Source: Isurus oxyrinchus
Taxonomy: Eukaryota
Assembly: GCA_026770705.1 (NCBI GenBank)
Contig: JANJGN010000027.1
Span: 34,472,001 to 34,536,000, forward strand
DNA: 64,000 bases
Reading direction: 5' to 3'
The translations under genes and the position numbers were made by a program. Position 1 is the first letter of the stretch; the number at the start of each line of letters is the position of its first letter. Below, piece after piece: positions 1 to 61,206 of this stretch. The notes beneath the pieces were generated by a model. It ran no database searches, had not been told where the DNA came from, and saw nothing but the letters and a program-made list of their open reading frames with translations.

Positions 1-111
1 CGAAACGTCAACTCTTTTCTTCTCCGCCGATGCTGCCAGACCTGCTGAGTTTTTCCAGGTAATTCTGTTTTTGTTTTGGATTTCCAGCATCCGCAGTTTT
101 CTTTGTTTTTA
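1..111 (+). mobile_element. 3' end of PLE terminal repeat (pLTR); window starts inside the hammerhead motif
   Basis: CGAAACGTCAACTCTTTTCTTCTCC...CCAGGTAATTCTG...CAGCATCCGCAGTTTT is nearly identical to 52220-52330, the 3' end of the RT/GIY-YIG element. Confidence 0.85.
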
Positions 112-1269
112 TCCATTTGTTTTATTGTTCGCTGTGTTTCCAATTGAAACTTTTTTTGGCGTAATTGTTGCTGCTGTTTCTATAGAAAACACATAGCAAG
201 TTCCCTTTGATACTTTCAGCAACATTAAACATGGTATCAGCTCCATGTAATCATACATTAGAAACCAGGAAGGTCTGCCTACCACTCCCTCACCAACCAC
301 CCCCCAACCACCCCTCCCAGCTCTGCGGCACAACCATTCAAACAGGGAATAAATGATTTCTTTTACCACTTTAATGAAAATCTTGTAAAGTTTGAGCTTG
401 GCAGTCACTGCTTGTTGGCGAGACAATTCAGAGTGAATGTGAATGTGTATGTTTCACAGGGGACATTCCCATTCTTATCTGGATTGGATGGAACCCATTA
501 CACAAGGTTAAAATATGACTTTTGCACACTAGGGATAAACAAATTCCAAGTTTATAATTGGCTGAGAGCAGGTACAGTTCCCCTGTCTGTGTTCATGTGT
601 CTGCTTACATGTGTGTCTATGTATGAGCGTGGGCCTGTTTGAGTGAGCATGCATGTGTGTATATTTGTGTGCACGCATATGTTTGTGTGCCGGTGTGCTT
701 GTGCATTTCTGTGCGTGTCTGCGTATGCGTGTGCTTGTGTGGAAGAATCATGGGGAGGATAGACTGTGTTTATATGGCAATGAAAGCTAATTGTTGATTA
801 TGTTTTTTCTGGGCTGTGTTGTACCACTGGTAGAAAACAGATGGCGTTCTGGAAAATCCGATGTTTCAGATTGAGGACTGGAAAGTTTTTTATGTCTGAA
901 GACAACTACCGCTGAATCAGTCTACCCTACATCTTCATGAAAATGAAGGAAGGTTTCATAAAAAGGGGGCCCATGCGACACGTGCTTGGCAGGAAACTTC
1001 TTTGTCATGAACAGTTTAGGTTTGGGTGGTTCGTTTAGCTTCTATGCTCAATAAGGCTTTGGATCAATCATGGACAACAGAGCTGAAATCCTAAGCTGAT
1101 CTGATAGTGGCTGCCTTCACGTCAAAGCAATATGTGATTGAGTTTTACATCAAGAGTCCAAGGAAAACTTGGATAATTAGGAATAAAGAGAATACACTCG
1201 CAGCAGATTGGCGTAAAAACTAGTACACGGGAATATGGTTGCGGTTGTTCGGGGTCATGCACTTCATTC

Positions 1270-4272: not shown

Positions 4273-4479
4273 TAAAACAGAAACAGAATTACCTGGAAAA
4301 ACTCAGCAGGTCTGGCAGCATCGGCGGAGAAGAAGAGAACAGAATTCTTTTGCAGGGTCATCAGAACTCTAAACGTCAAGTCTTTTCTTCTCTGCCAATG
4401 GTGCCAGACCTGCTGAGTTTTTTTTCCAGGTAATTCTGTTTTTGGTTTGGATTTCCAGCATCCGCAGTTTTTTGTTTTT
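4273..4479. mobile_element. Non-autonomous PLE pLTR insertion made of two inverted pLTR pieces, with 11-bp TSD
   Basis: 4273-4336 is a minus-strand pLTR piece and 4343-4479 a plus-strand piece with a decayed hammerhead; direct repeat AGCATATATCA at 4262-4272 and 4480-4490. Confidence 0.85.
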
Positions 4480-4699
4480 AGCATATATCAAGTCTTGCTT
4501 TGTGCCGGCGCCATTATGACTGAATGTTAAAGCAGATCTAATACATTAGTCACATGTGGGCAGGTGATTGAAGGAATTATCAGAAGTAATAATCTACTCG
4601 GAGCTCAATGGCAGGAGGAGGAGCAGTCGGGGTTCTCCCTGGAGGAGGACAATAAAACAATTTAGGAATGTCTTTAAAGCAGCCCTGGAAGTGATACAG

Positions 4700-5718: not shown

Positions 5719-7284
5719 CTGTTAAACAGGGGGTGGTATTTCGAGCAATTATTTCAGTCATTTTAGTATCATCACGGTGTTGAAGGGTGCAGCCCATCGG
5801 AGTAGAGATGACAATAATTAATGATTCACGGAGACTTGTCCGGGAACATGTTACCATACTCAGTAAGGTAACATTCATTTTGCCACGTGGACTGGAGTAT
5901 TTGAAGGGGAAGCTGCAGTATTAGCTTTTCAGTGCATCCAAAGATGGAAAATAAGTAATCCTGATGTTCTCACGAAAGCAGCACAATAGAAAATGGGCCA
6001 ATAGGCGTAGTTGTCTGATCCACAATTCATTCCCCTTCCCACAAATACAACCGTCCTTCATTTCCATAGACATTAAATCTGCCCCAAGTGACTGTGCAGA
6101 ATGGAATCCATAGGCAATGAACTCAAAGAGGGGTCAAAACATAATTTGATTTTTTTCCCAGCATTTTTGGATAATGTTCACTCCTAAACAAGGTTACCAT
6201 CTATATAAATTGCGTTGAGACGTAACCCCTGCCCCTATTTATGTTTAACAATATGCTGACCAGGACATTAAATGACACTACCAATGTGCTCAAACCTATG
6301 TCCTTTCGAGGTTCGCCATTACCATTTCACTAATTAAGTCCATCTTTCTAGAATTACCATGTTGTCCATAGTTCAGCTTTTGACAGCCTTATCATTCTGC
6401 ATCGATTTTAAATTAGTTTGTGATTATTTGATCTCCCTGAACGCTTGCGTTCCTCCCTTTTACTCATTCATTTCACTTCAGTGTTACAGTTGGCAAATTA
6501 AATTTGTATATTACATTTCAAATTGTAATTAATCAAAATTACTTAGGAGATGATATATTTTCCAAACGTATATCCATTCTGGAAAATTATTAATGTTTTT
6601 TTTAAATTCGCTTCCATACATGCCAGTCCACAATAATTTGCTCAATCATTAAGTTTTGAAAAAAAAATGTTTGATTTCAAAGTCCAAATCATTCTGGTAA
6701 ACTTTGAACAAACGTGATCCCAGCAAGGACGCATGTAGAAAGCCCATTCCCACTTGTGGATTAATACACCATTCCCGCTCTGTTTCCTCTCTTTCTCGGC
6801 AGCTGGCAACCCATTTTCCGTGGTTTCACTTGACTCCAGGTAAATGAAAAGAAAACGAGGATCCGGTATTTTTGATGACCACCAAGTGCCCAAACCTCCT
6901 TGCACCTCATGAATCACTCGTGTTCCATTGTAATGATGGATACACGGGAACCATGACAGGCAATTTCTTAACAACATTGTGACTAGGGGCAACCAACGCG
7001 TTTTGATCATTCACAGGCAATCTGATTTTGTGATTTTGCTCAAGGGATATATAATAAACAGTATACCAACGGCAACATTCAAGTATTCGTCAGCATCGTC
7101 AATGTGCATTTTATGTCCCCAGGAGACAGCAGGATGCTTAAACATCTTCTCTGAAGGACAACAATGCCAAGAGGGCATCACTCGATCAATTCTGCATCGG
7201 AGTGTCTGCCTTGATATTTCTTATTAAGTTCGGGTGTGGAACTCGATCCCTTTAGATATTGAGCCAGAGACAATTTTGAGGCCA

Positions 7285-7488
7285 TAAAAACAAAAAAAAC
7301 TGCGGATGCTGGAAATCCAAAACAAAAACAGAATTACCTGGAAAAACTCAGCAGCTCTGGCAGCATCGGTGGAGAAGAAAAGAGTTGACGTTTCGAGTCC
7401 TCATGACCCTTCGACAGAACTAGGTGAATCCCAGGAAGGGTTGAAATATAAGCTGGTTTAAGGTTGGGGGGGTGGGGGTGGTGGTGAG
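7285..7488 (-). mobile_element. Solo PLE pLTR insertion (about 204 bp) with intact hammerhead motif and 18-bp TSD
   Basis: Matches the reverse complement of about 52130-52330; perfect direct repeat GAGACAATTTTGAGGCCA at 7267-7284 and 7489-7506. Confidence 0.9.
7383..7421 (-). ncRNA. Minimal type I hammerhead ribozyme motif (PLE-associated, CUGUCGA core variant)
   Basis: AGUU-CUGUCGA-A-GGGUC-AUGAG-GACUC-GAAAC-GUC-AACU: stem I AGUU/AACU, stem II GGGUC/GACUC, palindromic ACGU stem III, GUC triplet. Confidence 0.7.
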
Positions 7489-8908
7489 GAGACAATTTTG
7501 AGGCCACCTGGGCAGGATATGAAAGTTATGCACTCGCCTTATGCTTGGATATATCAATTGGAAGTTTCCAAAAAATTTTGAGTATCTAGAAAATGTATGT
7601 TTTCGCTGCTAAACTTATGAACCCTATTATCTTTTTTCAAGATGTTGATGAGTTTCACTGCGTGAGATCCCATTATGAAGTCCTTACTGTTTGTAACTTA
7701 CGTTGTTTGAACCGTAGATGTTCTTGTTTCCTCCTTAGTGGTCATTATATTAGTTATTCTCCCACAAATCTTCATTTGTCTGAACATTCGTCCCGGGACA
7801 TTTCCCTTCTCATTGCTTAAACGTTGTTTAAATGTACGTTATCCACCAGGAGTCTGGCACTGCATCCTCTTGAATTGAATTGGTTAATGACTGAATTGGT
7901 GCCTCTGCTATCTTATTGCATTATTCTAATATCAATAAATGCACACTATTATTACCAGGCCTTCTGTCATTTGAGTTTGATGAGTTTTTTTGTTACTGTT
8001 CTTCTTATTATTTTAAATACAAATATATTACTCCTAACTGAATTTTCCAAAGTATATTTTGTATCTGGCAAATACTAAAGACATGTGATTGAGTAATATT
8101 TCTGCTATGTTATGGATGTTGACACTTAATTTACTGTATTCCTTATGGAAATATGGTCATGCTATTCTGACCTGCCTTATTTTGAGGCTGAAGAACATGG
8201 CACTATTTTTGTTAACGTTCCATGGTCATTTCATTTATTCGTGTTTATTATCTCCATGATTATAATTGTCACCGCTCTTCCTATTCTCCCTTGTCCTGCT
8301 TTGTCACCCTGCTACTTCACATCAATGTTTTTCAACCCCATACATATTGTTATTTTATTTTTCCAATTGCGGTTATTATCAATAGTTTGCCCCAGTTTTT
8401 AACATGTTCCTGTTATTTATTGAAATATATTTTCTTGGATTTGGTTCAAAATAGTTTGAATGCCACCTTTTACCATTAAAGATTTAGATCATGTTGTTGG
8501 ATAAATTATTCCCAAGTGTAATTTTCTGCCCCCAAGATCAAGCGCCATCTGGACTTTCACAACTAATGTTAGTGGATTATATTTTCTATTCGATCACCCG
8601 CTCTCTGGATAGCTAATTCAAATAGGAATCTAATGGAGTCGTTTTGCAGCGCTGTGTGAACTTAGAAACAGATATTTTCATTGTTTTTTTTCATCCAAAT
8701 GGCAAAAGAATCCTTTGAGCAACGCGGAACAGTGGATGCTTGGAAAAATTTATTCATCTTCTGACATAACAGACTGAGATTGGAACTTTAATTTGAGGAA
8801 AATGAGCGAAATGCCCTCCGTACCCATTGTTTTCTGTATGTTATAAAGAGAGCAAATGGAAATGGAATTTGCCCAGAATGGATTGGCTTTACAATGGAAA
8901 TTACAAAC

Positions 8909-9494: not shown

Positions 9495-9525
<31 letters not shown>

Positions 9526-10640: not shown

Positions 10641-10671
<31 letters not shown>

Positions 10672-11460: not shown

Positions 11461-11499
11461 GCGAGTTTGATTTTAGTGATCATTGTACAAGGATAGCCA

Positions 11500-22479: not shown

Positions 22480-22604
22480 TGATGGTGAGTGTGTGTCCCA
22501 GTGTCTGCACTTGATTTATTCTGTGTTAGTGTGTGGGATTGAATGTATGCCCCTGTATGCTTGTCTGTGCGAATAACTGTGTTTGTGTGTGTTTTGTGTG
22601 TGTG

Positions 22605-22651
<47 letters not shown>

Positions 22652-23783: not shown

Positions 23784-23814
<31 letters not shown>

Positions 23815-26000: not shown

Positions 26001-26034
26001 TGAATGTTCAAAATTTTGAAACACATAGGAGAGC

Positions 26035-30477: not shown

Positions 30478-30949
30478 CGAGAAACAATGAATCACTTAGA
30501 GCGTTCAGTGGCTGGCTACATGTCCATCATGGGTATCCCTCACTGACTGATCAGAAAACACAAAACAAAAAGTCACTGTCCTCCCATTGGGCGGGCTGCC
30601 TGGCCTTTATCACTATCAGTTAATGATTGGACAGGAATCCGACATTGGCATATCTCCACACAATCATTGCCCGGACTGCCTGCTGGCCTTCGCGAATCCT
30701 CCAGCTAATTGGAGAGAAAACCCCACCTGCAAAGGGCTCTGCCGACCCGCCAGCTGCGCTGCCTTTCCATCATAATAATGTGACACACCAGACATTGGAC
30801 AAGAATGGTTCAATCGTAAAATTGATGTAATATTAATAACTTGCCAGTGGGAGGGAAGAGAAAATTAATCCATAAAGCAGAAGGGAGGTATCGCTCAGGG
30901 TTTAAAGGGGTAAGAGGCTAATTCAGGGTCAAAATTGGGGGCTCATTTG

Positions 30950-33900: not shown

Positions 33901-36900
33901 NNNNNNNNNNNNNNNNNNNNNNNNNNNNNNNNNNNNNNNNNNNNNNNNNNNNNNNNNNNNNNGCACAAGAGAGAAAGAGATTTAGACCAGAGAAACGTGA
34001 AGATCAGGCACAGAGTGAGTGAGAGAGAAAAGGAGAGAAAGAGAGAGAGGGAGAGAGAATGGCAGAGAGAAATAGAAAGACTTGGAGACAAAGAGAAAGA
34101 GATAGAGAGAAAGAGTTAAACTAAGAGTGACAGAGAGAGAGAGAGAGAGAGGGAGACTGAAAGAAAGAAAAACAAAGATAGGGTGTAATAGAGAGAGGGG
34201 GAAGGGAGAGAGAGAAACAGAGAGGAAGAGAGAGAGTTGGAGACAAGGACAAAGGGAAATAGTGAGAAAGAGGTAAACCAAGAGTGACAGAGAGAGACAG
34301 AGAGTGAGACAGAGAGAGAGAGAGAGAGAGAAAGAAAGTTAGAGTGGAAGAGACACAGAGAGAGAAACAGAGAGAGGGAGAGAGATAGAGAAAGGGAGAG
34401 AGATAGAGAAATAGAGAGAGAGGGAGAGAAAGAGAAACAGCGAGACAGAGAGAGACACACACAAAGGGAGAGACAATGACAGACTTGAGGGATGGACAGA
34501 GATAGAAAGAAATGGAGAGGAGCAAGAAAAGAGTTAGAGAGAGGGATAGGGAGAGAGAAGGACTTACAGCAAGATAAGGGGACAGAGAGAGAGACAGACA
34601 GACAATCAGAGAGAACAAAGACCAATAGATATATATATATAGAGAGAGAGAGACAGAGAGGGGCGTGGGTGCTGGGAAACAGAGAGACAGAGCGGCAGAG
34701 AGAAATAGTGATAGATGGAGACAAGGAGAAAGGGAGATGGAGAGAAAGAGATAAACCACGAGTGATATAGAGAGAGCTGGAGACATGGAGAACTTCAAAG
34801 ATAGAATGTAAGAGAGAGGGAAGGAGAGAGAAAAATGGAGAGAAAGCGAGAGAGAAAGACAGAAGGAGAGAGAGAGAGAAAGAGAGGGAGATGGAAAGAG
34901 AGATAGGAAGAGCCACAGAGTGAGAGAGACAGAGAGAAGCAGTGAGAGAATGGGACAGTGAGGGAGAAACAGAGACAGACAGGGAGAAACAAGTGGTGAC
35001 AGGGAGAGAGTGATACTAAGAGAGAGAGACTGAAAGGGAGTGGGAGGCACAGAGAAAGAGACAAAGAGTTTGAGAGACACAAACAATGACAATGGGAGAG
35101 AGTTAGTAAGACAAAGAGAGAGAGACAGAGACAGAGAGAGAGAGAATGATGCTTAGAGGGAGAGAGGCTTAGTGAGAGAGTATGGCTGACATGCAAGTAG
35201 AGAGAGAGAGATTCAAACAGACATGGAGAAAGAGAGACAGAGAGAGAAAGAGACAGAGAAAAAGACAGGCAGAGAGAGGACATGCAGAGAAAGAGAGAGA
35301 GTGACAGATAGGCTGAGATATATAGAGGAAAGAGAGGGAGAGAAACAGAGAGGTTGAAATAGAAAGATAGGCAGAGAGAGAGACAAAAGGTAAGAGAGAG
35401 AGCCGGAGGCAGAGAGAAAGAGAGAGAAAGAGAGAGAGACAAACAGACAGACAGAGAGAGGCAGAGAGAGAGAGAGAGTGAGTTAAATTGAAAGAGAGAG
35501 AGAGAGAGGGACAATGACAGTGTGACAGAATCAGATGGAGAGAGAAATAGTGAGAGACGGAAAAAGTAAGGGAGAAAGAGAGCAATACGGTCTGGGAGAG
35601 AGACAGATAATGGGAGAGAGAAATAGAGAGAGTGGGTTTCAGGGAGAAAGAAAGATAGCCATAAAGAGATATCACGAGAGCAACAGAGAATGTGAGGGAG
35701 AGAGCGAGAGAGAGAAAAAAAATACAAAGCAAGAGAGAAACAGAGAGATAGAGAGACAGATGGAGAAAGGAGAGTTAGACAGATAGAGTGAGCGAGACAG
35801 AGATAGCGAGAGGGAGAGTGAGCAATAGCAAGGGAGAGAAAGAGAGAGAGAGAAAGAGAGAAAAATACTGAGCATTGCAGGGGAAGAGAGATCGAGAGAG
35901 TGATAGAGGGAGAGGTAAGAGTGACAGATGTAGAGTGACAATCAGACAGACTGACAGAGGGATATAGAGTGAGGGAGGGATAGAGAGAGAAAGAGGCAGA
36001 GAGAGGAGACAGGCGGAGAGGAAGAGAGTGGGGAGAGGGAGACTTAGATATAGAGAAAGGCAGAGAGAGAAAGGGAGAGGGAGAGAAATAGAGAAAAGCA
36101 AGGCAAAGAGAAAAAGAGTCAGGGAAAGGGAGATGGAGAAAGGGAGAGACAGACAGAGATAGGAAGTTATGTTGGGACAGAGAGTGACAGACAGGGAGAG
36201 AAACAGGGAGAATCGAAGGAAAGTGACAATGACAGTTCCAAAGGGTGACGAACAGGGAGAACAAGACAGGCAGAGTACGAGGGTGGTAGAAATAGAGGGA
36301 GAGAGTGAGCGAAAGGCAGACAGTGAGATCGAGTGAGACAGAAAGCTGGAGGACGAGAGAGGGTGAGAGAGTGATAAGCAAAAGCAGGGAGAGGGAGAAA
36401 GAGATAGAGAGAGACGCGGGGTGGCAGAGTGAGGGAGACAATGACAGGCAGAAAGAGTAATATGGTCAGAGAGAGGAGTCAGACAGAGAGAGATTTAGAG
36501 TTTCCTACATGCAGAGAGCGAGAGAGAGAGAGAGAGAGCAGAGCTACAGTGAATGAGATTGGGAGAAATAAAGAAATGGAGATTGAGAGGGTGCAGAGAG
36601 AGAGAGAGAGAGAGAGAAAGAGGGAGAGAGATTGAAAGAAAAAGGGGATTGAGTGGGAGAGAGACAAAATGATTGAAAGAGAGAGAGACAGAGAGGTAAA
36701 ATAAACAAAGGCTGTGACACAGAAAGAGTTACTGTGAGAAATAGAGGGAAAGCGAGAGAGGGGGGACATAGAGAGAGACAGTGACAGAAAAAAAGGAAAT
36801 AAAGANNNNNNNNNNNNNNNNNNNNNNNNNNNNNNNNNNNNNNNNNNNNNNNNNNNNNNNNNNNNNNNNNNNNNNNNNNNNNNNNNNNNNNNNNNNNNNN

Positions 36901-39090
36901 NNNNNNNNNNNNNNNNNNNNNNNNNNNNNNNNNNNNNGAGAGACCGAGAGAGGGATAGAGGGAAAAGTGAGAGTGAAAGGCGAAAGGGACAGTCAGACAG
37001 CTGGATAGAGAGTGAGGGAGGGACACAGAGGGAAAGAGCCAGAGAGAGTGAGGTGGAGAGAGAGAGGGGGTGAGAGGGAGACAGAGAAAAGAGAAAGACA
37101 GAGAGACAAAGGGAGAGGGAATGAATGATTGGAAAGAAAGGGAGAGAGGGAAAGAAACAGGGAGACGGAGATTGAGAATGGGAGAGACAGACAGATATAG
37201 GAAGTTAGATAGAGGCAGAGAGCGACAGACAGGAAGAGACAGAGGGAGAAACGAAGGAGAGTTTGAATAACAGGCATGAAGGGTTACGGTCAGGGGGAAC
37301 AAGACAGGTAGGGAATTAGGGGGAGAGAAATAAAGGAGGAGAATGAGCGACAGGCAGAACGTGAGATCGAGTGAGACAGAAAGAGAGAAAGCGAGAGAGA
37401 GAGTGAGAGGGCAGGGAGACAGAGAGAGAGAGACAATTACAGTCAGAAAGAGTGAGAGGGTCAGAGAGAGTCAGGTGGACAGACAGAGAGATACAGACTT
37501 TCAGACATACAGTGAGAGAGAAGACAGATAGAGAGTGCAGAGAGACATGAGTGAGTGAGAATGAGAGAGACAAATTCATGCAGATAGAGAGGGAGCAGAG
37601 AGAGAAAGAAAGACAGTGAGAGATAGAGACAGAGAGAAAGAGGGAGAGAGAGATGGTGAGAAATAGGGGAAAGAGTGGGAGAGAGCCAAATAGTTAGAAA
37701 GAGAGAGATAGACAGAGAGGGTTAGAGATCGAGAGAGAGAGAGAAAGGAAAAGCAAGGAAGGCTAAGAGGGAGAGAGTGGGATCGAAAGAACGTGACAGA
37801 GTGATGGAAGGAGTGAGGGAGTGAGTGAGAGAGAGAGAGGGATATGGAGACGAAGAGAGAACGAGAGTCAGAACGGAATTGAGACGGGCAGACAGAAAGG
37901 AAGACAGAGAGATGCAGAGTGAGGGGAGAGAGAGGAAGAGACAGAGAGAGAGTGGGGGATAGAGACCAGGGGAGAGAGGGAAAGTTGGGAAAGTGACAGA
38001 GAGAGATAGAAAGACAGAGACACAGAAACAGAGAGAGAGAGAGAGAAAGAGAGAACGAGAGAGGGAAAGGGAGAGAGAGATGGAGAGAAATAGGGGAACG
38101 AGAGGGAGAGAAAAAGAGATAGAAAGAGAGATAGAGAGATAGACAGAGAGAGAGAGAGAAAAATATCAAAGGCTGAGAGACCGAGTGACTGCGAGAAAGA
38201 GAGGGAAAGTGAGAGAGAGAAGGGGGAACAGAGAGAGAGAATGAGACAGAAAGAGAGGCAGAGAAAGAGAGAGATAATGAGAGAGAGAGAGAGAGAGACA
38301 GCGAGACAGAGAGAGTGGGAGAGGGAGAGAGAGATAGAGAGAGAGAGGGTGAAGGAGGCTAAGTGAGAGAGGGGGCGGCACAACGTGGGAGGGGGACAGA
38401 GAGAGACAACAAGAGACTGAGGGAGAGCGGGGGATATTGAGTGTTAGAGAGAACCAGAGTGAGAAACGAAATAAGACAGACAGACAGGCCGGCAGACAGA
38501 TAGATAAAGAGTGAGGGCAGAGAGGGGAAGAGACAGAGAGAGAGCGAGGGATAGAGACAGGGAGGGAGAGATAAAAAATGGGTTTTAGAGAGAGAGAGAT
38601 AGAGAGGCATAGAGAGGAAGAGGCAGAAACAACCGGAGAGAAGGAGAGAGAGAGAAATAGAGAGAGGGAGAGAGAGTGGTCGGTGGGGGGGGGGGGGGGG
38701 GGGGGTGTGGTGGGGGGGGGGTGTGGGGGGTGGGGGGAAGGAGACAGAGAGAGAGAATGACTGAGAGAGAGAGGCAGAGAGTTAAATTGAAAGGGACAGA
38801 GAGAGCAAGGAATAAACAAAGGGAGAGAGAGGGAAAGGTGGGAAAGAGAGGGAGATACGGATGTAGAAACAAGGAGAGACAGAGAGATAGAAAGAGAGTG
38901 AGAAATATATATATATATATAGAGAGAGAGAGACAGAGAGAGAGTGAGAGAGAGAGAGAGGCTGATGGAGAGGTTTATTGAAAGAGACAGAGAGAGACAG
39001 AGAGACACACCGAGAGACACTGAGTTAAATTGAAAGAGACAGAGAGAGAGAGAAAGAGTGAGAGAGAAAGACCGAGGCAGACAGAGAGGT
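30950..39090 (+). repeat. ~8.1-kb purine-rich degenerate (GA)n tract with two gaps
   Basis: Plus strand is overwhelmingly A/G; the long Ser/Leu-rich minus-strand ORFs are compositional artefacts. Confidence 0.95.
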
Positions 39091-42000
39091 AAATCCCTGA
39101 CCTCGATATTTTCCACCCGATATATCGGACATGGAGACAACACGTGTGGTATTACTTGAAAAAAATATATATAAGCCCGAGAACCTTATCTCTTTGCTCT
39201 TTGGATTCGAACTGCAATGTTTCTGCCTGGACCAACCCTCTGAGCTGACACACAGTGGTGTTGCTTCGTATTTAGCCAAACTCTCTCAGTGTTCATTTTT
39301 AACGCATGAGGGCCACTACCCTTCTGAAATATGGCTCAAAATTTGCTAGGACCATAGATGACACACGAATCATTCCTGTTAGTCTCTGTGGGGACATTCC
39401 TATTCTCCCGGGTTTGTTTACTGATAATCCCAACAGTGTTTTCAAATTGGTCCAACACTTTTCCAGGAGGCTGTCAGATTCTCACCCTCTTTTATCTTGG
39501 AGGCCTGGTTGATCTTAACATTAATCAAAATTTCCTTCATTTCCCCTTTAAGGTTTTTCATTTCTAGCTCTAAAGAAACCAAATCTAAGCAATTCACTAA
39601 TGAATTGCAAACAGACTTGTAGTGTTGCTTCCAACCCAATATCCCTGTCTCTGAGCCGAGGACTTGATCCAACATGAAACCCAGCAGTCCCTCAAACAGA
39701 CTCCTCTTCTCACCACACTGACCCATTAATCCTATCCATGTCAGTTCAGCATCACTGCAACCACCTCACAGTGCACACCTTGATTCAATATTTTCCGTAA
39801 TGACGTAAATAATAAACCATCTGAAAGAACCAGCATGTATTTAGCAGGGTACACAGCCTGACACTCATTATGAACAGGAGGTGATTGCTTACGTCTGAGG
39901 GCTTGTGCCTTGGTCGTCGTCTTAGGCAATACCACCCTCATGCTCACTGGCTGCCTCCAGGTGACCTGTTTCTAGGAATGGACGTGTGTACACACTCTTC
40001 TCTTCCTCTGTTCGGAGCCAGCAGATGTTTCACCATTCTACACTCAATCAGACTTTCCCCCGAGTTCTCCATTCTCATGTTCCTGAACGAGAATCATACA
40101 TTTGACTTGGATGATACAGAACCGCTCCAGAAGTCCCACTTCAACACACCACATCCATGGATATCACTAAGCTACACTGTTCCTAAGTCATGAGGTTGAA
40201 TTCCAACATATGTGCAGGAATAATCCTAACATCTTGCCACTATCTACCTTTGATATTTCCTACGGTCCATTTTATTTCAGGTGCCCCTGCTGCTGCTGTT
40301 GCTTGTTTACCTGAATCTGACTTGCTTTGTGTACTCTGGCAAGTCACCTAACGGACCCCCCTTATATCCTTCAGTCTTTAACAACATTAAACCAAATGTG
40401 GTCTGTTTCGTTATGTGGCCTGATTTCAAACCATCTACCTCGTTTGCCTATTACTAGCATCAAGACACAATGGCGGTTAGGGCTTGTGTTATTACAACAC
40501 CACGATCCGACCACGAACCATGATCTTGAGGTCCCAGGTGGGAGTGGTTCTGATTCCCGATTCCAAAATAAAGTGAAAGACTCAGTACTGAGAATTGGTG
40601 AAAAACCTGCGTTCCCGTCCAAGTTCGTAAATTCTGGAAAAAAATTGCGTATGTTCCACAAAATAAAAAAAAACCTGAAGTTATTGCTCTTAAATCAAAC
40701 CTGTTCAAAGAGCAGGAATTGTGCAACCTGTCCCCATTGGTAAAATTATGAATTTTGGGAGGCACAGATTTAAAATGATTTTAAACTGATGGAAATGTGA
40801 CCTGAGAATAATATGTGTAAGGAACCAGTGTTTCGGACTTGTAATGCACGGCCTGAAAGATTGATGAAGGCAGCTTCAATCGGAACATTCAAGAGGGCAT
40901 TAGTTGATTATTTGAGTAGAAACAAATGTTTGCAGGGGGCTTGGTGGTGAAGGTGGAACAATGGCACTAAGTCATAATGCTCATTGAATAGCCTGTGATG
41001 ACATAATGGCCAAATTCCCTGTATCTGTGCTGTTTAAAGCTTTTGACGATATAAAGAATTTGACAGAGGACTAATGGTTTCAGAGGGATTTTGTATGTGT
41101 GATGGATTTCGGAAAAGTAAAAAATACAGAATTAGAAGAAGAGGATAATTCCTGGGTTGATGAGGATAATCCACCGCTACTGCATGGACTGCAGGACAGA
41201 CAACCGGAGGGTGGCCCCCTGCCAATGACCCCTATGAGACACAAAGGATTCTCCCTTCAGCTAATTAGCAGCAGGTCGGCGGGGAACTGGACCATGAGTT
41301 TGTGAGCCCATAGCTAGCTGAAGTTCTATGGAAAGTGGCAGCGGAGATCTCAAAGCTAGAAATAGGGAAATATTCACACAGCCACCATTTGGAAATTTGA
41401 TCAGACGGCAAGATTGCACGTTCCTGAAGGAGAAGGGTTAAAATAGGCTGTGCCTCATTATCTTGAGAGCTAACATCTTGGCAGCATTCCCAGCCGCAGG
41501 AATGATGAGGCAGGGGGACTGGGAAACAATGAAAGGGAGAGTGAAAACAACTCACAGCTGAGGAATTTCAAAACCATTTACCTAGCTGGACACAGTGAGA
41601 GAGGGAGTCTCTGAAATGCAGATCTTCTGCGCTGGGAGAGTGTGCTCAGCCTATAATGGGGCTGATGGAGGTCGGGAACAGATCCAAGACAAGCTCCTAG
41701 GAGCAATGTGAACCCGTGGGCTCGGAATGCTAATAGACCATTTGTTTGCGAGTTGGCAATCTGCCCCTGATGGCTTTGACCCAGCCACAGCAAACACTCC
41801 AGAAGCAGGAGTGTTGAGTAAAACAAGCCATCGGTTGGATGCAAGATAGGAGGACAAGTCTGCAAGCGGGCTTTATGAGTAAGCCCAACGGAGAAAGTGT
41901 CCGATATAAAGGTGACAGCAGCTAAGGCTGAGTAAAGGCCAAAGCGCAAGGAACTGTGGTAAATACCCACTGTGGAGGATACAGAGGCATTACAGGAAAG

Positions 42001-46030: not shown

Positions 46031-46905
46031 ATTACATCACGACCTTCCAACCTCTTCCTCAATATCATCATCTTCATTTCATGATAGGCTGTTTTCCTCT
46101 CTCTCTCCTCCATCCTCAGTGGTAGAACCCTTTTCAAATACAAGTTATGGAGCATGAAACATGCTTTAATAGTACAGGATACCATAGAAATTTCCAACAG
46201 TAGAGATAACTACATCTCCACCCCGCGCACCCCTCCCTCCCGCCCCCTGCTTTGCTGAGGCATCTGAACAGCAACTGGAGACGATGATCAGTTCATTGAG
46301 ATCCCTTGTATGAAGGTGGTTTTCAGTGCACCTTCGCTGGGGGTCTGTCTGCGGCTGCCAAATGGCCTTGTAAGGTTGTCAGATTAGATTCAGTTTTTAA
46401 GATGTGGAGTTGGAGAAACCTGAACCTACTACAGCCTAATTATGAATAAATATCAAACAAAGTTATTGTTCGAGGCTTTAACCTTAACGGCTGGACCCTG
46501 AGACTTCCGGGAGTAAACTCAATATAAGTTTCTATTTAGAAAAATGCAATTATATAAAATATCTAATTTTGCTTATATTAACACGTCTTTGAGTACAATG
46601 TTAAAGGTACACACGGCTTTTTCTTCCAAGGTCTAAGCTACATAGATTCTAATTTTTCAACTGAATAAAGTGACAAATTATAAATTGTAAATTCTGAATA
46701 TGTTCAATTGTTGTTATTGTGCATGACTTACAAGCGAAATACTCTGCAGTCTTGAGTGAATCTCTGGAGTTATCAGTTCTCTAGTTTCACTGTATGTCCA
46801 ACGATATGTTGTTACATGGAATACGTCTATTCTCCTGACAACGCGTCTATGGAAATCATCTGGGCGGTGAAATATATTTAACCCCTTGCCGACAACAAAG
46901 TTATT

Positions 46906-49900
46906 TCCAAAACAAAAACAAAATTACCTGGAAAAATTCAGCAGGACTGGCAGCATCGGCTGAGAAGAAAAGAATTGACGTTTCTAGTCCTCATGACCCT
47001 TTGACAGAACTAAGTAGAAATAAGAAAGGAGTGAAGTATAAGCTGGTTTAAGGTATGTGTGTGTGTGTTTTGGGGGGGTGGGGGGGTTGGTGGGTTGGGT
47101 GGGGGAGAGAAGTGGAGGGGGTGGTGTGGTTGCAGCGACAAGCAAGCCGTGATAGAAGTAGATCATCGAAAGATGTCACAGACAACAGAACAAAAGAAGA
47201 CATATGTGTTGAAGTTGGTGATATTATCTAAACGAATGTGCTAATTAGGAATGGATGGTAGGGCACTCAAGGTATAGCTTTAGTGGGGGGGGAGCATAAA
47301 ATGTTTAAAAATATTGAGAAATAATGAAAATAGGTGGGAAAAAGAAAAATCTATATAATTTATTGGAAAAAAAGGAAGAAACAGAAAGGGGGTCGGGATG
47401 GAGGAGGGAGGTCAAGACATAAAGTTGTTGAATTCAATATTCAGTCCGGAAGGCTGTAAAGTGCCTAGTCGGAAGATGAGGTGCTACTCCTCCAGTTTGC
47501 ATTGGGCTTCAATGGAACAATGCAGCAAGCCAAGGAGAGACATGTGGGCAAGAGAGCAGGGTGGAGTGTTCAAATGACAAGCGACAGGGAGATTTGGGCC
47601 ATTCTTGCATACAGACCACAGGTGTTCTGCAAAGCGGACACCCAGTTTAGGTTTTGTCTCTCCAATGTAGTGGAGATCGCATTGGGAGCAACGAATGCAG
47701 TAGACTAAGTTTGGGGAAATGCAAGTGAGATGTTGCTTCACTTGAAAGGAGTGTTTGGGCCCTAGGACGGTGAGAGAGAGAGGAAGTGAAGGGGCAGGTG
47801 TTACATCTTTTGCGTGGACATTGGGTAGTGCCATAGGTGGGGGTTGAGGAGTAGGTGGTGATGGAGGAGTGGACCAGGGTGTCCCGGAGGGAATGATCCC
47901 TACGGAATGCTGATAAGGGGGGTGAAGGGAAGATGTGTTTGGTGGTGGCATCATGCTGGAGTTGGCAGAAATGGCGCAGGATGATCCTTTGAATGCGGAG
48001 GCTGGTGGGGTGATAAGTCAGAACAAGGGGAACCCTATCATGTTTCTGGGAGGGAGGAGAAGGCATGAGGGCGGATCTGCGGGAGATGGGCTGGACACGG
48101 TTGAGGGCCCTGTCAATGATCGTGGGTGGAAAACCTCGTACAAGGAAGAAGGAGGACATGTCAGACGAACTATTTTTGAAGGTAACATCATCGGAACAGA
48201 TGCGATGGAGGCGAAGGAACTGAGAGAATGGGATGGAGTCCTTACAGGAAACGGGGTGTGCGGAGCTGTAGTCGAGGTAGCTGTGGGAGTCGGTAGGTTT
48301 GTAATGGATATAGGTGGACAGTCTATCACCAGAGATTGAGACAGAGAGGTCAAAGAAGTAAAGGGAAGTGTCAGAGATGGACCATGTGAAAATGATGGAC
48401 GGGTGGAAATTGGAAGCAAAAATAATACATTTTTCCAAGTCCCGACGAGAGCATGAAGCGGCACCGAAGTAATCATCAATGTACCGGAGAAAGAGTTGTG
48501 GAAGGGGGCCGGAGTACGACTGGAACAAGGAATGTTCCACATACCCCATAAAGAGACAGGCATAGCTGGGGCCCATGCAGGTACCCATAGCCACACCTTT
48601 TATTTGGAGGAAGTGAGATGAGTTAAAGGAGAAATTGTTCAGTATCAGAACCAGTTCAGCCTGACGGAGGAGAGTAGTGTTGGATGGGGATTGTTCAGGC
48701 CTCTGTTCGAGGAAGAAGCTAAGGGCCCTCAGACCATCCTGGTGGGGGATGGAGGTGTAGGGGAATTGGACGTCCATGGTGAAGAGGAAGCGGTTGGCAC
48801 CAGGGAACTGGAAATTTTTGATGTGACGTAAGGTGTCAGAGGAATCACGGATGTAGTTGGGAAGGGACTGGACAAGGGGAGAGAGAAGGGAGTCAAGATA
48901 ATGAGAAATGAGTTCTGTGGGGCAGGAGCAAGCTGAGATGATCGGTCTACCGGGACAGTTCTGTTTGTGGATTTTGGTGAGGAGATAGAAGCGGGGCATC
49001 TGAGGTTGGGTGACTATCAGGTTGGAAGCTGTGGGAGGAAGATCCCCAGAGGAGATGAGTTCAGTGACCGTCCTGGAAACAATGGCTTGATGTTCAGTGG
49101 TGGGGTCATGGTCCAGGGAGAGGTAGGAGGAAGTGTCTGCGAGTTGATGCTCAGCCTCCGCGAGGTAGAGGTCAGTGTGCCAGACAACAACAGCACCACC
49201 CTTGTCAGCGGGTTTGATGACAATGTCAGGGTTGGACCTGAGAGAATGGAGTGCAGTAAGTTCAAAGAGAGAGAGAGATTAGAATGGGTGAGAGGAGTAG
49301 AGAAATTGAGACGACTAATGTCGCGCCGACAGTTCTCAATGAAAAGATCAGGAGAAGGTAAGAATCCAGAGGGAGGGGTCCAGGTGGAGGGACAATATTG
49401 GAGTTGGGTGAAAGGATCCGTTGAATGGGGAGAGGACTTCTGCCCAAAGATGTGAGCCCGGAGATGAAGACGGCAGAAGAAGAGTTCAGCATCATGCCGA
49501 GCCCGAAATTCATTGAGGTGAGGGCGTAGGGCTATGAAACTAACTCCTTTGCTGAGCACTGAATGTTCAGCATCGGAGACGGGAAGGTCAGGGGGTATAG
49601 TGAATACACGGCTGGGGCTGGGATTGGAAGATGGGGTGGGGACGGAGGGACAGGCAGGGGTGGAGGGTCCTAGATGCGTGTTGCTGTCGATGAGTTGTTG
49701 GTGCTTGCATTCCTTAGCACTTGAGAGAAAGAGAAAAAGTTTCTTGTTGAGGCGTCGGATGAGCCGAAGAATAAAATGAAACTGGAGGCACGCACAGCTT
49801 TGAAAAAGGGTACGGCAGTGCTGCTGGAGGAAGAGGTCTAGTGTGTTCATATGGCGGAGCATGGCAGTTAGTTTGGATTTCAGAATATGTCCGGAACAGC

Positions 49901-50144
49901 AGGGCGAGAAAAGTTTTATGTCCCGGAAATACCTGTAATCCTGGGTGGGATCGAAAAATGTGGGGTGGAATTTCAATTGAAATCCATGTGGGGTAAGTCG
50001 GAGACGGACACAGTCACTGAGAAAGGAGATATGGCTGTGAAAGCGGGTTTTAGTAAACAACTTGTCAAACACCAGGAGAGAAATGGAAAGCAATGAAGGT
50101 GAGCAAGGCAAAAGAGAGATACGGAAATCTTGTCGCAGAGATCT
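46906..50144 (-). mobile_element. Penelope-like retroelement, near full ORF (N-terminus, RT, GIY-YIG) with frameshifts, 3' UTR and pLTR
   Basis: ORF 47647-48999: FYLLTKIHK, GRPIIS, TMDV, GVAMGT.MGPSYA.LFM, FLRYIDD; ORF 47484-47954: NLVYCIRC..C..HYIGETK..L..RFAEH (GIY-YIG); N-terminal ORF 49017-50111. Confidence 0.95.
46973..47011 (-). ncRNA. Hammerhead motif copy with core substitution (CUGUCAA), probably inactive
   Basis: AGUU-CUGUCAA-A-GGGUC-AUGAG-GACUA-GAAAC-GUC-AAUU. Confidence 0.5.
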
Positions 50145-52331
50145 GTGGATCTTCCTCCCACAGCTTCCAATTTGATAGTCCCCCTACATCGGACGGCCCA
50201 CTTCTATTTCCTACCCAAAATCCACAATGAGAGGTGCCCCGGTAGACCGATCGTCTCAGTTTGCTCCTGCCCCACAGAACTCATTTCTCGTTATCTTGAC
50301 TCCCTTCTCTCTCCCCTTGTCCAGTCCCTTCCCACCTACATCCGTGATTCCTCTGACAACTTACGTCACATCAACAATTTCCAGTTCCCTGGCCCCAACC
50401 GCATCCTCTTCAACATGGATGTCCAATCCCTCTACACCTCCAACCCCCACCAGGATGGTCTGAGGGCCTTTAGCTTCTTCCTCGAACAGAGGCCCAAACA
50501 ATGCCCATCCACCACTACTCTCCTCTGTCTGGCTGAACTTGTTCTCACACTGAACAATTTCTCCTTCAACTCCTCTCACTTCCTCCAAATAAAAGGTGTG
50601 GCTTTGTGTACGCACTTGGGCCCCAGCTATGCCTGTCTCTTTATGGGGTATGTGGAACATTCCTTGTTCCAGTCGTACTCCGGCCCCCTTCCACAACTCT
50701 TTCTCCAGTACATCGATGATTACTTCGGTGCTGCTTCATGCTCTTATCAGGACTTGGAAAAATTTATTAATTTTGCTTCCAATCTCCACTCCTCCATCAT
50801 TTTCACAGTCCATCTGTGACACTTCCCTTCCATTCCTTGACCTCTCTGTCTCAATCTCTGGTGATAGACTGTCGACCAATAACCATTACAAACCTACCAA
50901 CTCCCACAGCTACGTTGACTTCAGATCCTCACACCCCGCTTCCTGTAGGGACTCCATCCCATTCTCTCAGTTCCTTCGTCTCTGTCACATCTGTTCTGAT
51001 GATGTTACCTTCTAAAACAGTTCCACTCACATGTGCTCCTTCTTCCTTAACCGAGGTTTTCCACCCATGGTCGTTGACAGGTCCCTCAACCGTGTCTGGC
51101 CCATCTCCCACGCATCCACCCTGATGCCTTCTCCTTCCTCTCAGAAACATGATAGGGTCCCCCTTGTCCTCAATTATCACCCCAGCAGCATCCACATTCA
51201 AAGGATCATCCTCCGCCATTTCCACCAACTCCAGCATGATGCCACCACCAAACACATCTTCCCTTCACGCCCCCCTGTCAGCATTCCGTAAGGATCATTC
51301 CCTCCGGGACACATGGTCCACTCCTCCATCACCGCCTACTCCTCAACCCCCTCCAATGGCACTACCCCATTCCCACGCAAAAGATGCAACACCAGCCGCT
51401 TCACTTCCTCTCTCCTCACCGTCCAAGGGCCCAAACACTCCTTTCAAGTGAAGCAAAATTTCACTTTCATTTCCCCCAACTTAGTCTACTGCATTCGTTG
51501 CTCCCAATGTGGTTTCCTCTACATTGGAGAGACCAAACATAAACTGGGCAACCGCTTTGCAGAACACCTGTGGTCTGTCTGCAAGAATGACCCAAACCTC
51601 CCTGTCGCTTTTCATTTTGACACTCCACCCTGCTCTCTTGCCCACATGTCTGTCCTTGGCTTGCTGCATTGTTCCAGTGAAGCCCAACGCAAACTGGAGG
51701 AACAACACCTCATCTTCCGACTAGGCACTTTACAGCCTTCTGCACTGAGTATTGAATTCAACAACTTTAGGTCTTGAGCTCCCTCCCCCATCCCACCCCC
51801 TTTCTGTTTCCCCCTTCCTTTTGTTTTTTTTTTCCAATAAATTATATAGATTTTTCTTTTCCCACCTATTTCCATTATTTTTAAATATTTTGAAATATTT
51901 TATGCTCCCCCCACCCCCACTAGAGCTATACCTTGAGTGCCCTACCATCCATTCTTAATTAGCACATTCGTTTAGATAATATTACCAACTTTAACACCTG
52001 TGTGTTCTTTTGTTCTGTTGTTTGTGACATCTTTTGATGATCTTCTATCACTGCTTGTTTGTCCCTAAAACCAGACCAAACCCCTCCACTTCTCTCTCTC
52101 TCTCTCTTTCCCCACCACTCCCCACCGCCCCCCCACCCCCTGCACACACCTTAATCCAGCTTATATTTGAACTCTTTCTTGGACTCGAAATAAAGTTCTG
52201 TCGAAGGGTCATGAGGACTCGAAACGTCAACTCTTTTCTTCTCCAACGATCCTGCCAGACCTGCTGAGTTTTTCCAGGTAATTCTGTTTTTGTTTTGGAT
52301 TTCCAGCATCCGCAGTTTTTTTTGTTTTTAT
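50142..52331 (+). mobile_element. Second Penelope-like copy, 5'-truncated at the start of RT, inverted relative to the first
   Basis: ORFs 50130-50819 (RT, YIDD) and 51313-51777 (GIY-YIG, VYCIRC..CGFLYIGETK); frameshifts and a TAA at 51013; ends in the pLTR. Confidence 0.95.
52194..52232 (+). ncRNA. Minimal type I hammerhead ribozyme motif (CUGUCGA core variant)
   Basis: Identical 39-mer to 7383-7421: AGTTCTGTCGAAGGGTCATGAGGACTCGAAACGTCAACT. Confidence 0.7.
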
Positions 52332-52844
52332 ATTTATACATTGCCAGTGGAGTTCTAGCACAGGATTAAGTAGACTCAACATCCCTCGCATTGACCCGAT
52401 CAAACATTTCCAGGGCAGGTGCAGCACAGCGTTACGTACAAAATAAATTCCCCTTGATGCCAAGTTTGGGTTACCGACAGGCTCACTTTGCCCGTGATCT
52501 CATTGACGCCTTGTTTATAACATGGGCAGAAGAGCTGAGCCATGGAGAAAAGGTGAGAGTGATTGGCCTTGAAATCAAGGCCGACTGTGTTTGGATTTGT
52601 CCTAGTTTGGTAGCAAATATCTGTAGCAAAATCGTAGTCAATGGGAATCAGGGAGAAAACTCTGCAAGTGTTAGCGTCATACCTAGCCCAACGGAAGATG
52701 GCTGCACTGGTCGGAGGTCAGTATCCCAGCTCCAGGACATCACTGCAGGAGTTTCTCTGACTATTGCCCTCGGCCGACGCACCTGCAGCTGCTTTATCAA
52801 TTACCTTCCTCCCTTCATTGAAGGCAAGGTAGAGGGCGTCTGAT

Positions 52845-59155: not shown

Positions 59156-60037
59156 TTATTGTTGAATTAATTGCAGAATTGGTGTAAAGGGATATTTCAG
59201 CACAGTATTCAACTGCTGTCTGAACAGCATCTGTGTCACAGTGTAAATCATTGTTAGTGCAGCAGCTCAAGAGCTGCAGCATGAAGCCCAATTCCATGAC
59301 AAATTCATCTAAAACAACAGAATCAGAACCCAAATTCCACGCCCACCACCATATAAAATGAATCATTGACACTGACGTCAACAGGATGAAAATAGCAGCA
59401 AAACAGCAAAATGATGGATTTCATTTGACTCTCCATCTCTGGGTCTCTGGGAATCTCCCCACTCCTGTGATTCCGGAGTCTCCTGCGGGCTCTGCTGCTC
59501 AGTAGAATGTGTCTGACAGTGAGAACATTAAGCAGCAGAATCAGGACAAATGGGACACAAGGGGTTAGAATGTGATGGAGGAACTCGATTGTTGTCCAGA
59601 CGGGAGAGATCTGATCATCGACTGTGGCACCATAAAACCAAGGGGCGTTCCCGAGCAAATACCAACCTATGAACATAAAATGCCTGATTTTTTTTAAACA
59701 GTTCAGCACAGTCACTGTCCCAAGGACCATAGCCCTGGTTTTCTTGCTGCATTATTTACCTTTCAACTTTGCCGCACAAATGGCCACACATCAGTCACGA
59801 GGTGAAATTGATGGTGAAACAGGCAGGACAGTCAGTGGCTGCATAAAGCAGAATGGCATGAATATTGCAAACGGTAATGGAAAAAAGAAACAAATCTGTT
59901 CCTCAAAAACAATCTCAATATGAGGTCCAGGGAAACAAGCAGCAGATCCCCCACTACCATGGCCACCAGGTAACAAGTGACACATTTGGCCACACCAATG
60001 TTTTTGCAATTCTGTGCCACAATTGTGATGAAGTTGA
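59156..60037 (-). pseudogene. GPR139/GPR142-like GPCR paralog 2, coding exon 2, multiple frameshifts
   Basis: Acceptor TTGCTTCCTTGCAG (phase 1); NFITIVA, KCVTCYLVAM..GDLL, VLGTVTVL, HHILTPCVPFVLILLLNVLTVRHILLSSR, ELGFMLQLLSCCTN, LKYPFTPILQLIQQ-TAA, spread over several frames; exon 1 not found in the window. Confidence 0.9.
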
Positions 60038-60831
60038 CTGCAAGGAAGCAAATAATCAATTAATATATTCATCAGGCAGGGGAAGATGTTAACAGTTTGA
60101 TTATGAAGTATTTGATACTATCAAACATGTGGCTGCAACACGTGATGCATTGAATTAAATGGACATGAAATAACATATGAAAAGGATCTTCACACTGTGC
60201 ATAGACGCAGAGATTAAATAACCAGCAAAGGCTGTAAGAAAGGAGGGGTGCGATAGGAAACGGTGAAGTCAATGATAATAGTGGACCTAATGGTGACATT
60301 GGGACAAAGGCATAATGGAAGGACTCAGGTCTGGGGGGTGGGGAGCGGGGGGGGGGGTCAGTCAAGATTGACGGGGGGCAGAGTGTGATGTATGAAACCA
60401 GAGGTGATGTGTGTGTTACAGATGGGGGATAGAATGACTTCTCATTTCCCTCTCTTCTCTACTCGCTGCAACAAGGTGGATTTCCAATGAGGAGCGTTTA
60501 ACCCCTCCAGTGGTATACTAAATTTTACTTATACCAATTCACAACATAGATTTTCTTGTCATTATAAAAATCGAAAAAATGGATAGAAGCTTATTTATTA
60601 CAAACGAGAGTAGGAAAATCATAGTAAAACTTTCTCTACAAACACACTTAAGACAATACTTTTCTTCTGGAAATGTAAGATGCACTTTTATGATTAGAAG
60701 TGAGAACAGAAACATGTCACTTTTCTACAGTCCATCCGCCGGTGGTTGAAAACTTGGCAGGCTTAAGGGTTCCACTCCTCGTTTCTTAAAGACAAATAAT
60801 GTCTATTACAGCATGTTTTTAAAAAGCCCGT

Positions 60832-61206
60832 AATGCAGACAGACCACAGGTGTTCTGCAAAGCGGTCGCCCAGTTTACGTTTGGTCTCTCCAATGTAGGG
60901 GAGACCGCATTGGGAGCAATGAATGCAGTAGACTAAGTTGGGGGAAATGCAAGTGAAATGTTGCTTCACTTGAAAGGAGTGTTTGGGCCCTTGGACAGTG
61001 AGGAGAGAGGAAGTGAAGGGGCAGGTGTTGCATCTTTATAACTCCCTCCCCCATTCCCACCCCCTTTCTGTTTCTTCCCCCTCCCTTTTGTTTTTTTTCC
61101 AATAATTTATATAGATTTTCCTTTTCCCACCTATTTCCATTATTCTTAAATCTATACCTTTTATGCCGTGATAGTCTTATTTCACCCCACCCCCACTAGA
61201 GCTATA
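60832..61206. mobile_element. PLE fragment with internal inversion (minus-strand GIY-YIG piece joined to a plus-strand 3' UTR piece)
   Basis: 60832-61037 matches 47605-47810 (NLVYCIHCSQCGLPYIGETKRKLGDRFAEH on minus); 61041-61206 matches 51778-51930 on plus. Confidence 0.85.

What the first reader, a model, noticed from the sequence alone, without database searches (positions are those of the whole stretch)
52194..52331. Hammerhead ribozyme with a family-wide non-canonical core (CUGUCGA) in a PLE terminal repeat
Seen: the same 39-nt fold occurs intact at 52194-52232 (+) and 7383-7421 (-), mutated at 46973-47011 and 4343-4381, and partially at 1-13. It has stem I AGUU/AACU, a 5-bp stem II, GAAAC, a palindromic ACGU and a GUC triplet. 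Established: PLE pLTRs carry minimal type I hammerheads whose short palindromic stem III is thought to allow dimeric cleavage, and the canonical core is CUGAnGA. Here core A6 is U in all three well-preserved copies, with an extra A before stem II, so it looks like a fixed family variant rather than decay. The downstream tail is also structured: GATGCTG (29-35) pairs with CAGCATC (85-91) around a donor-like CAG|GTAATT. Inference: either an active A6U variant or a family that keeps moving with a weakened ribozyme.
Basis: partly seen in the sequence, partly recalled or inferred. Interest (0 to 1): 0.75.

Follow-up and report, generated by a model that had tools for sequence, protein, structure and literature searches.

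The report
Shark retrotransposon hammerhead with fixed A6U
A jumping gene in what is likely a shark genome swapped a normally fixed letter in the core of its small self-cutting RNA motif once and then made about 97,000 copies carrying the swap, which suggests the cutting is likely weak and not needed for jumping, although the motif's shape appears to have been kept.

Summary
52194-52232 is the minimal hammerhead of a Penelope-like element (RT, zinc-finger linker, GIY-YIG). Core position 6 is U, not A. It is a lineage trait, not decay: 97,001 U6 versus 6,690 A6 genome matches. U6 arose once from canonical ancestors. Intact 918-aa elements carry it in both terminal repeats. The extra A is normal for PLE hammerheads. 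Published mutagenesis predicts low activity for changes in the CUGA turn. Copy 5' ends cluster just before the hammerhead, not at the cut site, in U6 and A6 families alike, so uncut RNA is probably the template. After A6U, changes fell on tolerated positions (4 of 7 versus 1 of 31), weak evidence that the fold is still kept; there is no two-sided covariation. The tail hairpin lacks covariation and the donor-like site showed no splice joint. Best reading: a near-silent, dispensable ribozyme; cleavage is untested. The scan already found this variant on other DNA of this genome (e1-9904347). New variant of a known kind; interest 0.45.

The parts
52194..52232 (+). Minimal type I hammerhead motif in the downstream pseudo-LTR; predicted cut after 52228
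   Evidence: matches the PLE consensus of PMC4209133 suppl. Fig. S3 except position 6
52201..52201 (+). U at core position 6 (A in the canonical core)
   Evidence: 74 of 77 young copies spanning the core have U
52229..52331 (+). Element 5'-UTR 'tail' after the cut site; copies end in two clusters about 65 and 105 nt after the site; contains the complementary stretches 52248-54/52304-10 and the donor-like 52275-83
   Evidence: (53 and 46 of 109 ends)
52164..52193 (+). Fast-evolving segment just upstream of stem I; formerly a pyrimidine tract ending in YAG, now holding a second copy of the motif's 3' half at 52181-52190
   Evidence: (11 of 28 columns changed B0 to B3)
51775..52163 (+). 3' UTR / pseudo-LTR of the element
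   Evidence: 82% to the minus-strand copy over 400 nt
50103..51774 (+). 5'-truncated, frameshifted PLE ORF: RT pieces and C-terminal GIY-YIG endonuclease
   Evidence: GIY-YIG E 6e-4, below Pfam cut-off
46906..50183 (-). Near full-length, broken second copy in head-to-head orientation (arms 88% identical over 2,170 nt)
   Evidence: 91% identity over 501 aa to the intact L271 protein
46973..47011 (-). Hammerhead of the minus-strand copy, U6 kept, two CpG-type changes
7284..7491 (-). Short copy of the element end with an intact U6 hammerhead at 7383-7421
4274..4480 (.). Head-to-head stub of two element ends; decayed hammerhead at 4343-4381 (+)
1..112 (+). Element end cut by the window edge (3' part of the hammerhead plus tail)

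Best explanation
This is the terminal-repeat hammerhead motif of a high-copy Penelope-like retrotransposon whose lineage fixed an A6U core change once and kept multiplying; the change likely leaves the ribozyme nearly silent, the element likely copies itself from uncut RNA, and the fold is probably still weakly maintained. Shown: PLE context, single origin of U6, intact U6 elements, copy numbers, where copies begin and end. Inferred: transcription starts about 10 nt before stem I in the upstream repeat; reverse transcription starts at two sites in the tail, reads through the uncut hammerhead to the RNA 5' end and then switches template, giving the head-to-head stubs; cleavage, if any, is a slow side reaction (dimer through the ACGU palindrome, perhaps protein-assisted) and not a step in transposition.
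For: PLE: intact 918-aa ORFs with RT, a CxxxxCxxC linker and GIY-YIG lie between two U6 hammerheads about 3.3 kb apart. Fixed: 56,199 of 72,102 exact matches are UC at 6/7; A6 106, G6 68, and A6 copies are scattered over the tree (10 changes for 11 rows, shuffles 10.6). Derived once: 45 of 45 U6 rows plus 1 A6 row form one 100/99 clade, 20 A6 rows outside. Youngest copies are U6: 1.1% mismatch versus 4.3-8.8% for the other groups. Low activity expected: all single and double mutants of the CUGA turn except the C3-G8 swap had low activity (PMC9901934); A6C slowed a hammerhead to 3.55e-6 per min from 0.3 per min in 0.3 mM Mg (PMC7151607). Uncut template: of 46 truncated young copies 3 start at the cut site (3.7 expected) and 17 at -10..+2 (7.0 expected, p 2e-4); in an anole PLE, hammerhead-dead mutants inserted normally in vitro (PMC11167929). 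Fold kept: after A6U, 4 of 7 tolerated positions changed versus 1 of 31 others, and that one keeps the pair as G.U (Fisher p 0.002).
Against: No cleavage was measured; A6U itself was not seen as a separately reported value in any text I read. Conservation of the 15 core sites alone is not significant (P 0.16 at the lineage's four-fold-site rate of 19 of 164), nor is 1 of 31 (P 0.11); the whole motif changed at 5 of 39, the neutral rate, and the tail is as conserved (2 of 34). No two-sided covariation in 21 pairs over 23 copies. Predicted stem II probability is lower in the youngest copies (median 0.01-0.09) than in A6 groups (0.13-0.67), which argues for erosion. The end-mapping test does not separate active from inactive motifs, since the A6 group also shows 3 of 47 at the cut site. 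It is one lineage, so success cannot be attributed to U6.
Confidence: 0.55

Rival explanations
1. The ribozyme is dead. The 39 nt are kept only because they overlap other signals (internal promoter or start site, RNA or DNA site bound by the RT-EN protein), and the resemblance to a maintained fold is partly chance.
For: Motif as a whole changed at the neutral rate (5 of 39 versus 19 of 164) and the tail is equally conserved; no covariation; predicted fold weakened in young copies; U6 can pair with A15.1 in a predicted collapsed fold (B0 copies); copy 5' ends cluster at the motif's front edge; Naiad PLEs spread without canonical hammerheads (PMC8557442).
Confidence: 0.28
2. U6 is a functional variant: it cleaves at a useful rate in vivo as a dimer, helped by the element's protein or by Mn2+, and acts as a throttle or switch.
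For: Natural A6C hammerhead is slow in Mg but fast in Mn; the anole PLE hammerhead cleaves only with its protein; core and palindrome unchanged through at least four U6 subfamilies; tandem intact elements place two motifs on one transcript.
Against: Published CUGA-turn mutants are low and not rescued by second changes; no compensatory core change here; no excess of copies starting at the cut site; canonical minimal PLE hammerheads are already slow.
Confidence: 0.15
3. U6 is ordinary decay or chance in a few dead copies.
For: None beyond the decayed window copies at 4343 and 46973.
Against: 97,001 matches, single origin, intact ORFs, 0 of 100 shuffles match.
Confidence: 0.01

Closest known systems
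Minimal type I hammerheads of metazoan PLE pseudo-LTRs (Cervera & De la Pena 2014, PMC4209133)
   Same: Position in the pLTR, short stem I, extra nucleotide between 9 and 10.1, G10.1-C11.1 pair, stem III reduced to a palindrome, thousands of dispersed copies, inverted close pairs.
   Different: All 56 representatives of suppl. Fig. S3 as read have A6 (consensus CUGANGAH); their descriptor required it. The one core variant named is the compensatory U3-A8. No cartilaginous fish is listed.
Natural A6C hammerhead of phage Bcep176 (Perreault 2011, PMC3088659; Naghdi 2020, PMC7151607)
   Same: Natural, uncompensated change at core position 6.
   Different: C not U; one phage sequence, not a lineage-fixed trait in about 1e5 retroelement copies; activity was measured there (slow in Mg, rescued by Mn).
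PAc, Poseidon PLE of the green anole (Frangieh 2024, PMC11167929)
   Same: Hammerhead at the 5' end of the unit, two clustered 3' ends defining a tail, no sign of ends at the cut site.
   Different: PAc has a cleaving, protein-assisted hammerhead overlapping the start codon; here the ORF starts about 140 nt after the cut site, the protein has a zinc-finger linker, and the core has U6.
Neptune/Nematis EN+ PLEs, and hammerhead-less Naiads (Craig 2021, PMC8557442)
   Same: RT then Zn-finger-like linker then GIY-YIG; partial tandems, inverted 5'-truncated copy, tail; high copy number without a canonical hammerhead (Naiads).
   Different: Naiads have an N-terminal endonuclease and lack the motif; here the motif is intact but for one core base and its canonical ancestors are still in the genome.

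Membership tests
EN+ Penelope-like element | Single ORF with RT and C-terminal GIY-YIG endonuclease | tested here: met
   918-aa ORFs in L271 and L273; RVT_1 E 7e-8 and 3e-6, GIY-YIG E 9e-4 and 2e-3 (the latter below Pfam's cut-off)
EN+ Penelope-like element | Tandem or partial tandem with pseudo-LTRs, inverted truncated copy, tail | tested here: met
   3.34-3.35 kb tandem; head-to-head arms in the window; two 3'-end clusters; 35 of 46 truncated young copies adjoin inverted element sequence
Neptune/Nematis clades | Cx2-5CxxC zinc-finger-like linker between RT and EN | tested here: met
   Cys-x4-Cys-x2-Cys read directly in the ORF; definition
Neptune/Nematis clades | Placement in an RT phylogeny with reference PLEs | not tested
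   no named reference set was fetched
Minimal PLE hammerhead | Stems I and II, extra nucleotide after A9, G10.1-C11.1, GAAA, palindromic 15.2/16.2, NUH | tested here: met
Minimal PLE hammerhead | Core CUGANGA (A at position 6) | tested here: not met
   U6 in 74 of 77 young copies; met only in the older subfamilies
Minimal PLE hammerhead | Covariation in stems | tested here: inconclusive
   0 two-sided changes in 23 copies; only A-U to G.U and a mismatch-to-pair change; too little divergence to expect many
Hammerhead ribozyme (functional) | Site-specific self-cleavage after H17 | not testable with these tools
   only contigs were available for RNA runs; genomic ends show no excess at the site in either U6 or A6 groups
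Rfam hammerhead families | Covariance-model hit | tested here: not met
   no hammerhead among 9 hits at E up to 5
Non-LTR retrozyme | Non-coding short tandem units each with a hammerhead | tested here: not met
   unit is 3.3 kb and encodes RT-EN; definition

The most novel reading that the evidence does not exclude
The lineage was selected to turn its own ribozyme down in steps (A6U first, then a weaker stem II and competing flanks), keeping the hammerhead fold for a non-catalytic job such as marking the RNA 5' end for the RT-EN protein; silencing cleavage is what let it outgrow its canonical-core sisters. That would be a natural test, with ancestors still in the genome, of the idea that hammerheads burden rather than serve Penelope elements.
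Probability: 0.15. Interest if true: 0.75.

Novelty: new variant of a known kind. Interest (0 to 1): 0.45.

Why it matters
Why Penelope-like elements carry hammerheads is stated as unclear in PMC8557442, which even suggests they may be parasites of the element. This genome holds a dated series of one lineage before and after an uncompensated core change, with intact elements on the U6 side. A few short RNAs (A6 ancestor-type natural copies, early U6, young U6) would show directly whether cleavage was lost before the largest expansion. It also shows that searches requiring CUGANGA miss about 1e5 motifs in one genome.

Tried and rejected
Rfam scan: no hammerhead hit. Splicing at the donor-like site or at the YAG before stem I: 4 contig sets guessed to be RNA showed no joint there; contigs of a repeat are short, so this is weak. 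A shared exon-1 sequence before truncated copies: 1 of 100 flanks gave an 18-nt sense match to the element; the 6 pairs among the 47 non-element flanks looked like neighbouring copies or other subfamilies and were not followed. Upstream segment as a designed anti-hammerhead strand: predicted in young copies but not above shuffles (43-59 of 200 as many pairs), rejected as evidence. A second, permuted hammerhead using the upstream duplicate: would need a zero-loop stem III and a 1-nt loop I, and copy ends show no sharp peak there; rejected. Upstream ATG in the tail as the ORF start: it meets a stop in both U6 and A6 copies. Expanding A6 revertant lineage: not seen. Dating A6-to-U6 by synonymous sites: too few A6 loci reached the ORF. 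Cross-species test: three coded organisms show no other letter at 52201 above 3%, but divergent copies are clipped there and the organisms' relation is unknown. Sequence look-up in earlier findings was empty. A larger tail-ascertained sample for end mapping was not obtained, so the end counts rest on 190 copies.

Full report
OBSERVATION. The motif is as described. At 52194-52232 (+): stem I AGUU/AACU, core CUGUCGA with U at position 6 (52201), one extra A, a 5-bp stem II with one G.U, GAAAC, GUC. 7383-7421 (-) is identical; 46973-47011 is on the minus strand and keeps U6; 4343-4381 is decayed; 1-13 is cut by the edge. A loose pattern finds 3 window matches and none in 100 shuffles. Rfam found no hammerhead.

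CONTEXT. Upstream on the same strand lie frameshifted RT pieces and a GIY-YIG domain (50103-51774), and a near full-length broken copy lies head-to-head at 46906-50183. Elsewhere in the genome, intact 918-aa ORFs (RT, Cys-x4-Cys-x2-Cys linker, GIY-YIG) sit between two U6 hammerheads about 3.3 kb apart (L271, L273). The ORF starts about 140 nt after the predicted cut site, so the motif lies in the 5' UTR of the downstream unit. The closest named homologue is a bamboo shark protein (69% identity over 65% of the query), so the host is probably a shark (inference). The linker points to the Neptune/Nematis clades as defined in PMC8557442; I built no RT tree.

FIXED, NOT DECAYED. A 33-nt pattern with positions 6 and 7 open has 72,102 exact matches in 4.98 Gb; 56,199 are UC, 106 have A6 and 68 have G6. 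A6 is thus as rare as another transversion, and the A6 copies I picked are scattered across the tree of young copies (10 changes for 11 rows; shuffled mean 10.6). With one looser pattern, U6 gives 97,001 matches and A6 gives 1,654 + 5,036 = 6,690. Exact matching favours young copies, so this overstates the ratio for all copies. In 1.66 Mb of fetched sequence (eight 200-kb blocks plus the window; the C1 block was chosen knowing it was dense), a tail-only search gave 193 copies, 190 after dropping 3 at block edges. Of the 77 young copies spanning the core, 74 have U6; the oldest group has A6 in 33 of 37.

ORIGIN. A tree of 66 natural copies with positions 6-7 masked (22 deliberately picked A6 revertant loci left out, copies lacking their own upstream repeat left out, young copies thinned; midpoint root) puts all 45 U6 rows and one A6 row in a 100/99 clade, with 20 A6 rows outside. 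The series reads CUGAAGA, CUGAUGA, CUGUUGA, CUGUCGA, with a ladder of U6 subfamilies. Tail mismatch to the group's commonest letter is 8.8% (A1), 4.3% (A2), 5.2% (early U6) and 1.1% (young U6) (groups were picked by exact patterns, so values are low-biased). Canonical and U6 sisters therefore coexisted, and in my sample only U6 left young copies. Contigs of three coded organisms show no other letter at 52201 above 3%, a weak sign that the variant is shared among them.

IS THE FOLD STILL KEPT? Between early and young U6 groups, four-fold sites in the ORF changed at 19 of 164 and the 3' UTR at 25 of 179; the 39-nt motif changed at 5 positions: N7, H17, two loop II bases and 10.2 (A-U to G.U). 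That is 4 of 7 tolerated sites versus 1 of 31 others (Fisher p 0.002). The motif letters of these groups were partly set by my search patterns, but the unselected sample shows the same columns. Against: 0 of 15 core changes has P 0.16 and 1 of 31 has P 0.11 at the neutral rate; the tail is as conserved (2 of 34); the contrast owes much to an excess at tolerated sites (P 0.005). No pair shows a two-sided change in 23 copies. Predicted stem II probability falls in the youngest copies. So the evidence for a maintained fold is real but modest.

DOES IT CUT? Not testable here. In PMC9901934 (passages) all single and double mutants of the CUGA turn other than the C3-G8 swap had low activity. PMC3088659 (section 8) and PMC7151607 (parts 1-2 of 4) show that natural A6C is slow in Mg and rescued by Mn. 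PMC4209133 (parts 1-2 of 4 and supplement parts 1-2 of 3) shows that even canonical minimal PLE hammerheads cut poorly, that the extra nucleotide is normal, and that all listed representatives have A6. If cut RNA were the template, copies should begin at 52229. They do not: of 46 truncated young copies, 3 begin within 3 nt of it (3.7 expected) and 17 at -10..+2 from C3 (7.0 expected, p 2e-4). The A6 group behaves alike (3 and 19 of 47) (inverted pairs are not fully independent, and the A1 bin includes more distant families). This says nothing on activity but indicates that uncut RNA is the template in both, matching PMC11167929 (parts 1-2 of 4), where hammerhead-dead mutants inserted normally and no reads ended at the site. 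Copy 3' ends fall in two clusters (53 and 46 of 109), like the two initiation sites in that paper.

THE TAIL. The 7-bp pairing is 95% paired but never covaries, and RNAalifold prefers another register. The donor-like GT arose with the A2 group, also completes a short inner hairpin, and no splice joint was seen there in four contig sets (weak).

MECHANISM. Shown: PLE anatomy, single origin, intact U6 elements, end positions. Inferred: start site near stem I, initiation in the tail, read-through of the uncut motif, template switch giving inverted stubs; U6 makes cleavage very slow at little cost. Odds: near-silent with fold weakly kept 0.55; dead relic 0.28; functional assisted variant 0.15.

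NOVELTY. Nine searches showed no listing of an A6U PLE hammerhead or of shark PLE hammerheads; hits were judged from titles only. Lunse et al. 2017 on small PLE hammerhead variants was not held, so prior description there is not excluded; the value for A6U in PMC9901934 is in figures or data I could not see (one search listed supplements only), and bioRxiv supplements are closed. Also seen as passages only: PMC8557442, PMC6155905, PMC11014351, bioRxiv 10.64898/2026.07.22.740005; PMC6765202 as passages and section 11 part 2. The scan itself reported this variant before on other DNA of this genome (e1-9904347); that is not independent support. Verdict: new variant of a known kind, interest 0.45.

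Noticed in passing
window 52164-52193; L002, L012, L025, L267: The 30 nt before stem I changed at 11 of 28 columns between early and young U6 groups, about three times the four-fold-site rate (P 2e-4), turning a pyrimidine tract with YAG into a stepwise-built second copy of the motif's 3' half. Suggests selection on a promoter or host-evasion site.
   Followed up: partly
L051-L080, L241-L270, just before stem I: Older subfamilies have a 3'-splice-site-like pyrimidine tract ending in YAG at the 5' edge of stem I, as reported for the D. virilis Penelope intron end; no spliced form was seen.
   Followed up: partly
L271:2210-8903 (G000:C1 near 462-469 kb): Three-unit tandem of nearly identical young elements, one with an intact ORF and two with single frameshifts.
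   Followed up: partly
L048, centre: Direct tandem of two hammerhead-plus-tail units about 90 nt apart, one A6 and one U6.
   Followed up: no
window 29884-30474 (+) and 59326-59751 (-): Two inverted, about 71% identical stretches (28828-30474 with 59162-60811) whose translations look like fragments of seven-transmembrane receptor genes (resemblance recalled, not searched).
   Followed up: no
window 1641-2498 (-), 26029-26523 (+), 24598-25101 (-): Fragments that look like LINE (CR1/L2-type) reverse transcriptase (resemblance recalled, not searched).
   Followed up: no
window 60834-61206: Further fragments of the same PLE (endonuclease region and 3' UTR), 83-95% identical to 51380-51930.
   Followed up: no
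window 9360-11465, 22500-23900, 30900-39200: Long low-complexity GA- and GT-rich tracts.
   Followed up: no
window 46873-46880 and 52329-52336: Only an 8-nt AT-rich direct repeat flanks the head-to-head element; no clear target-site duplication.
   Followed up: yes
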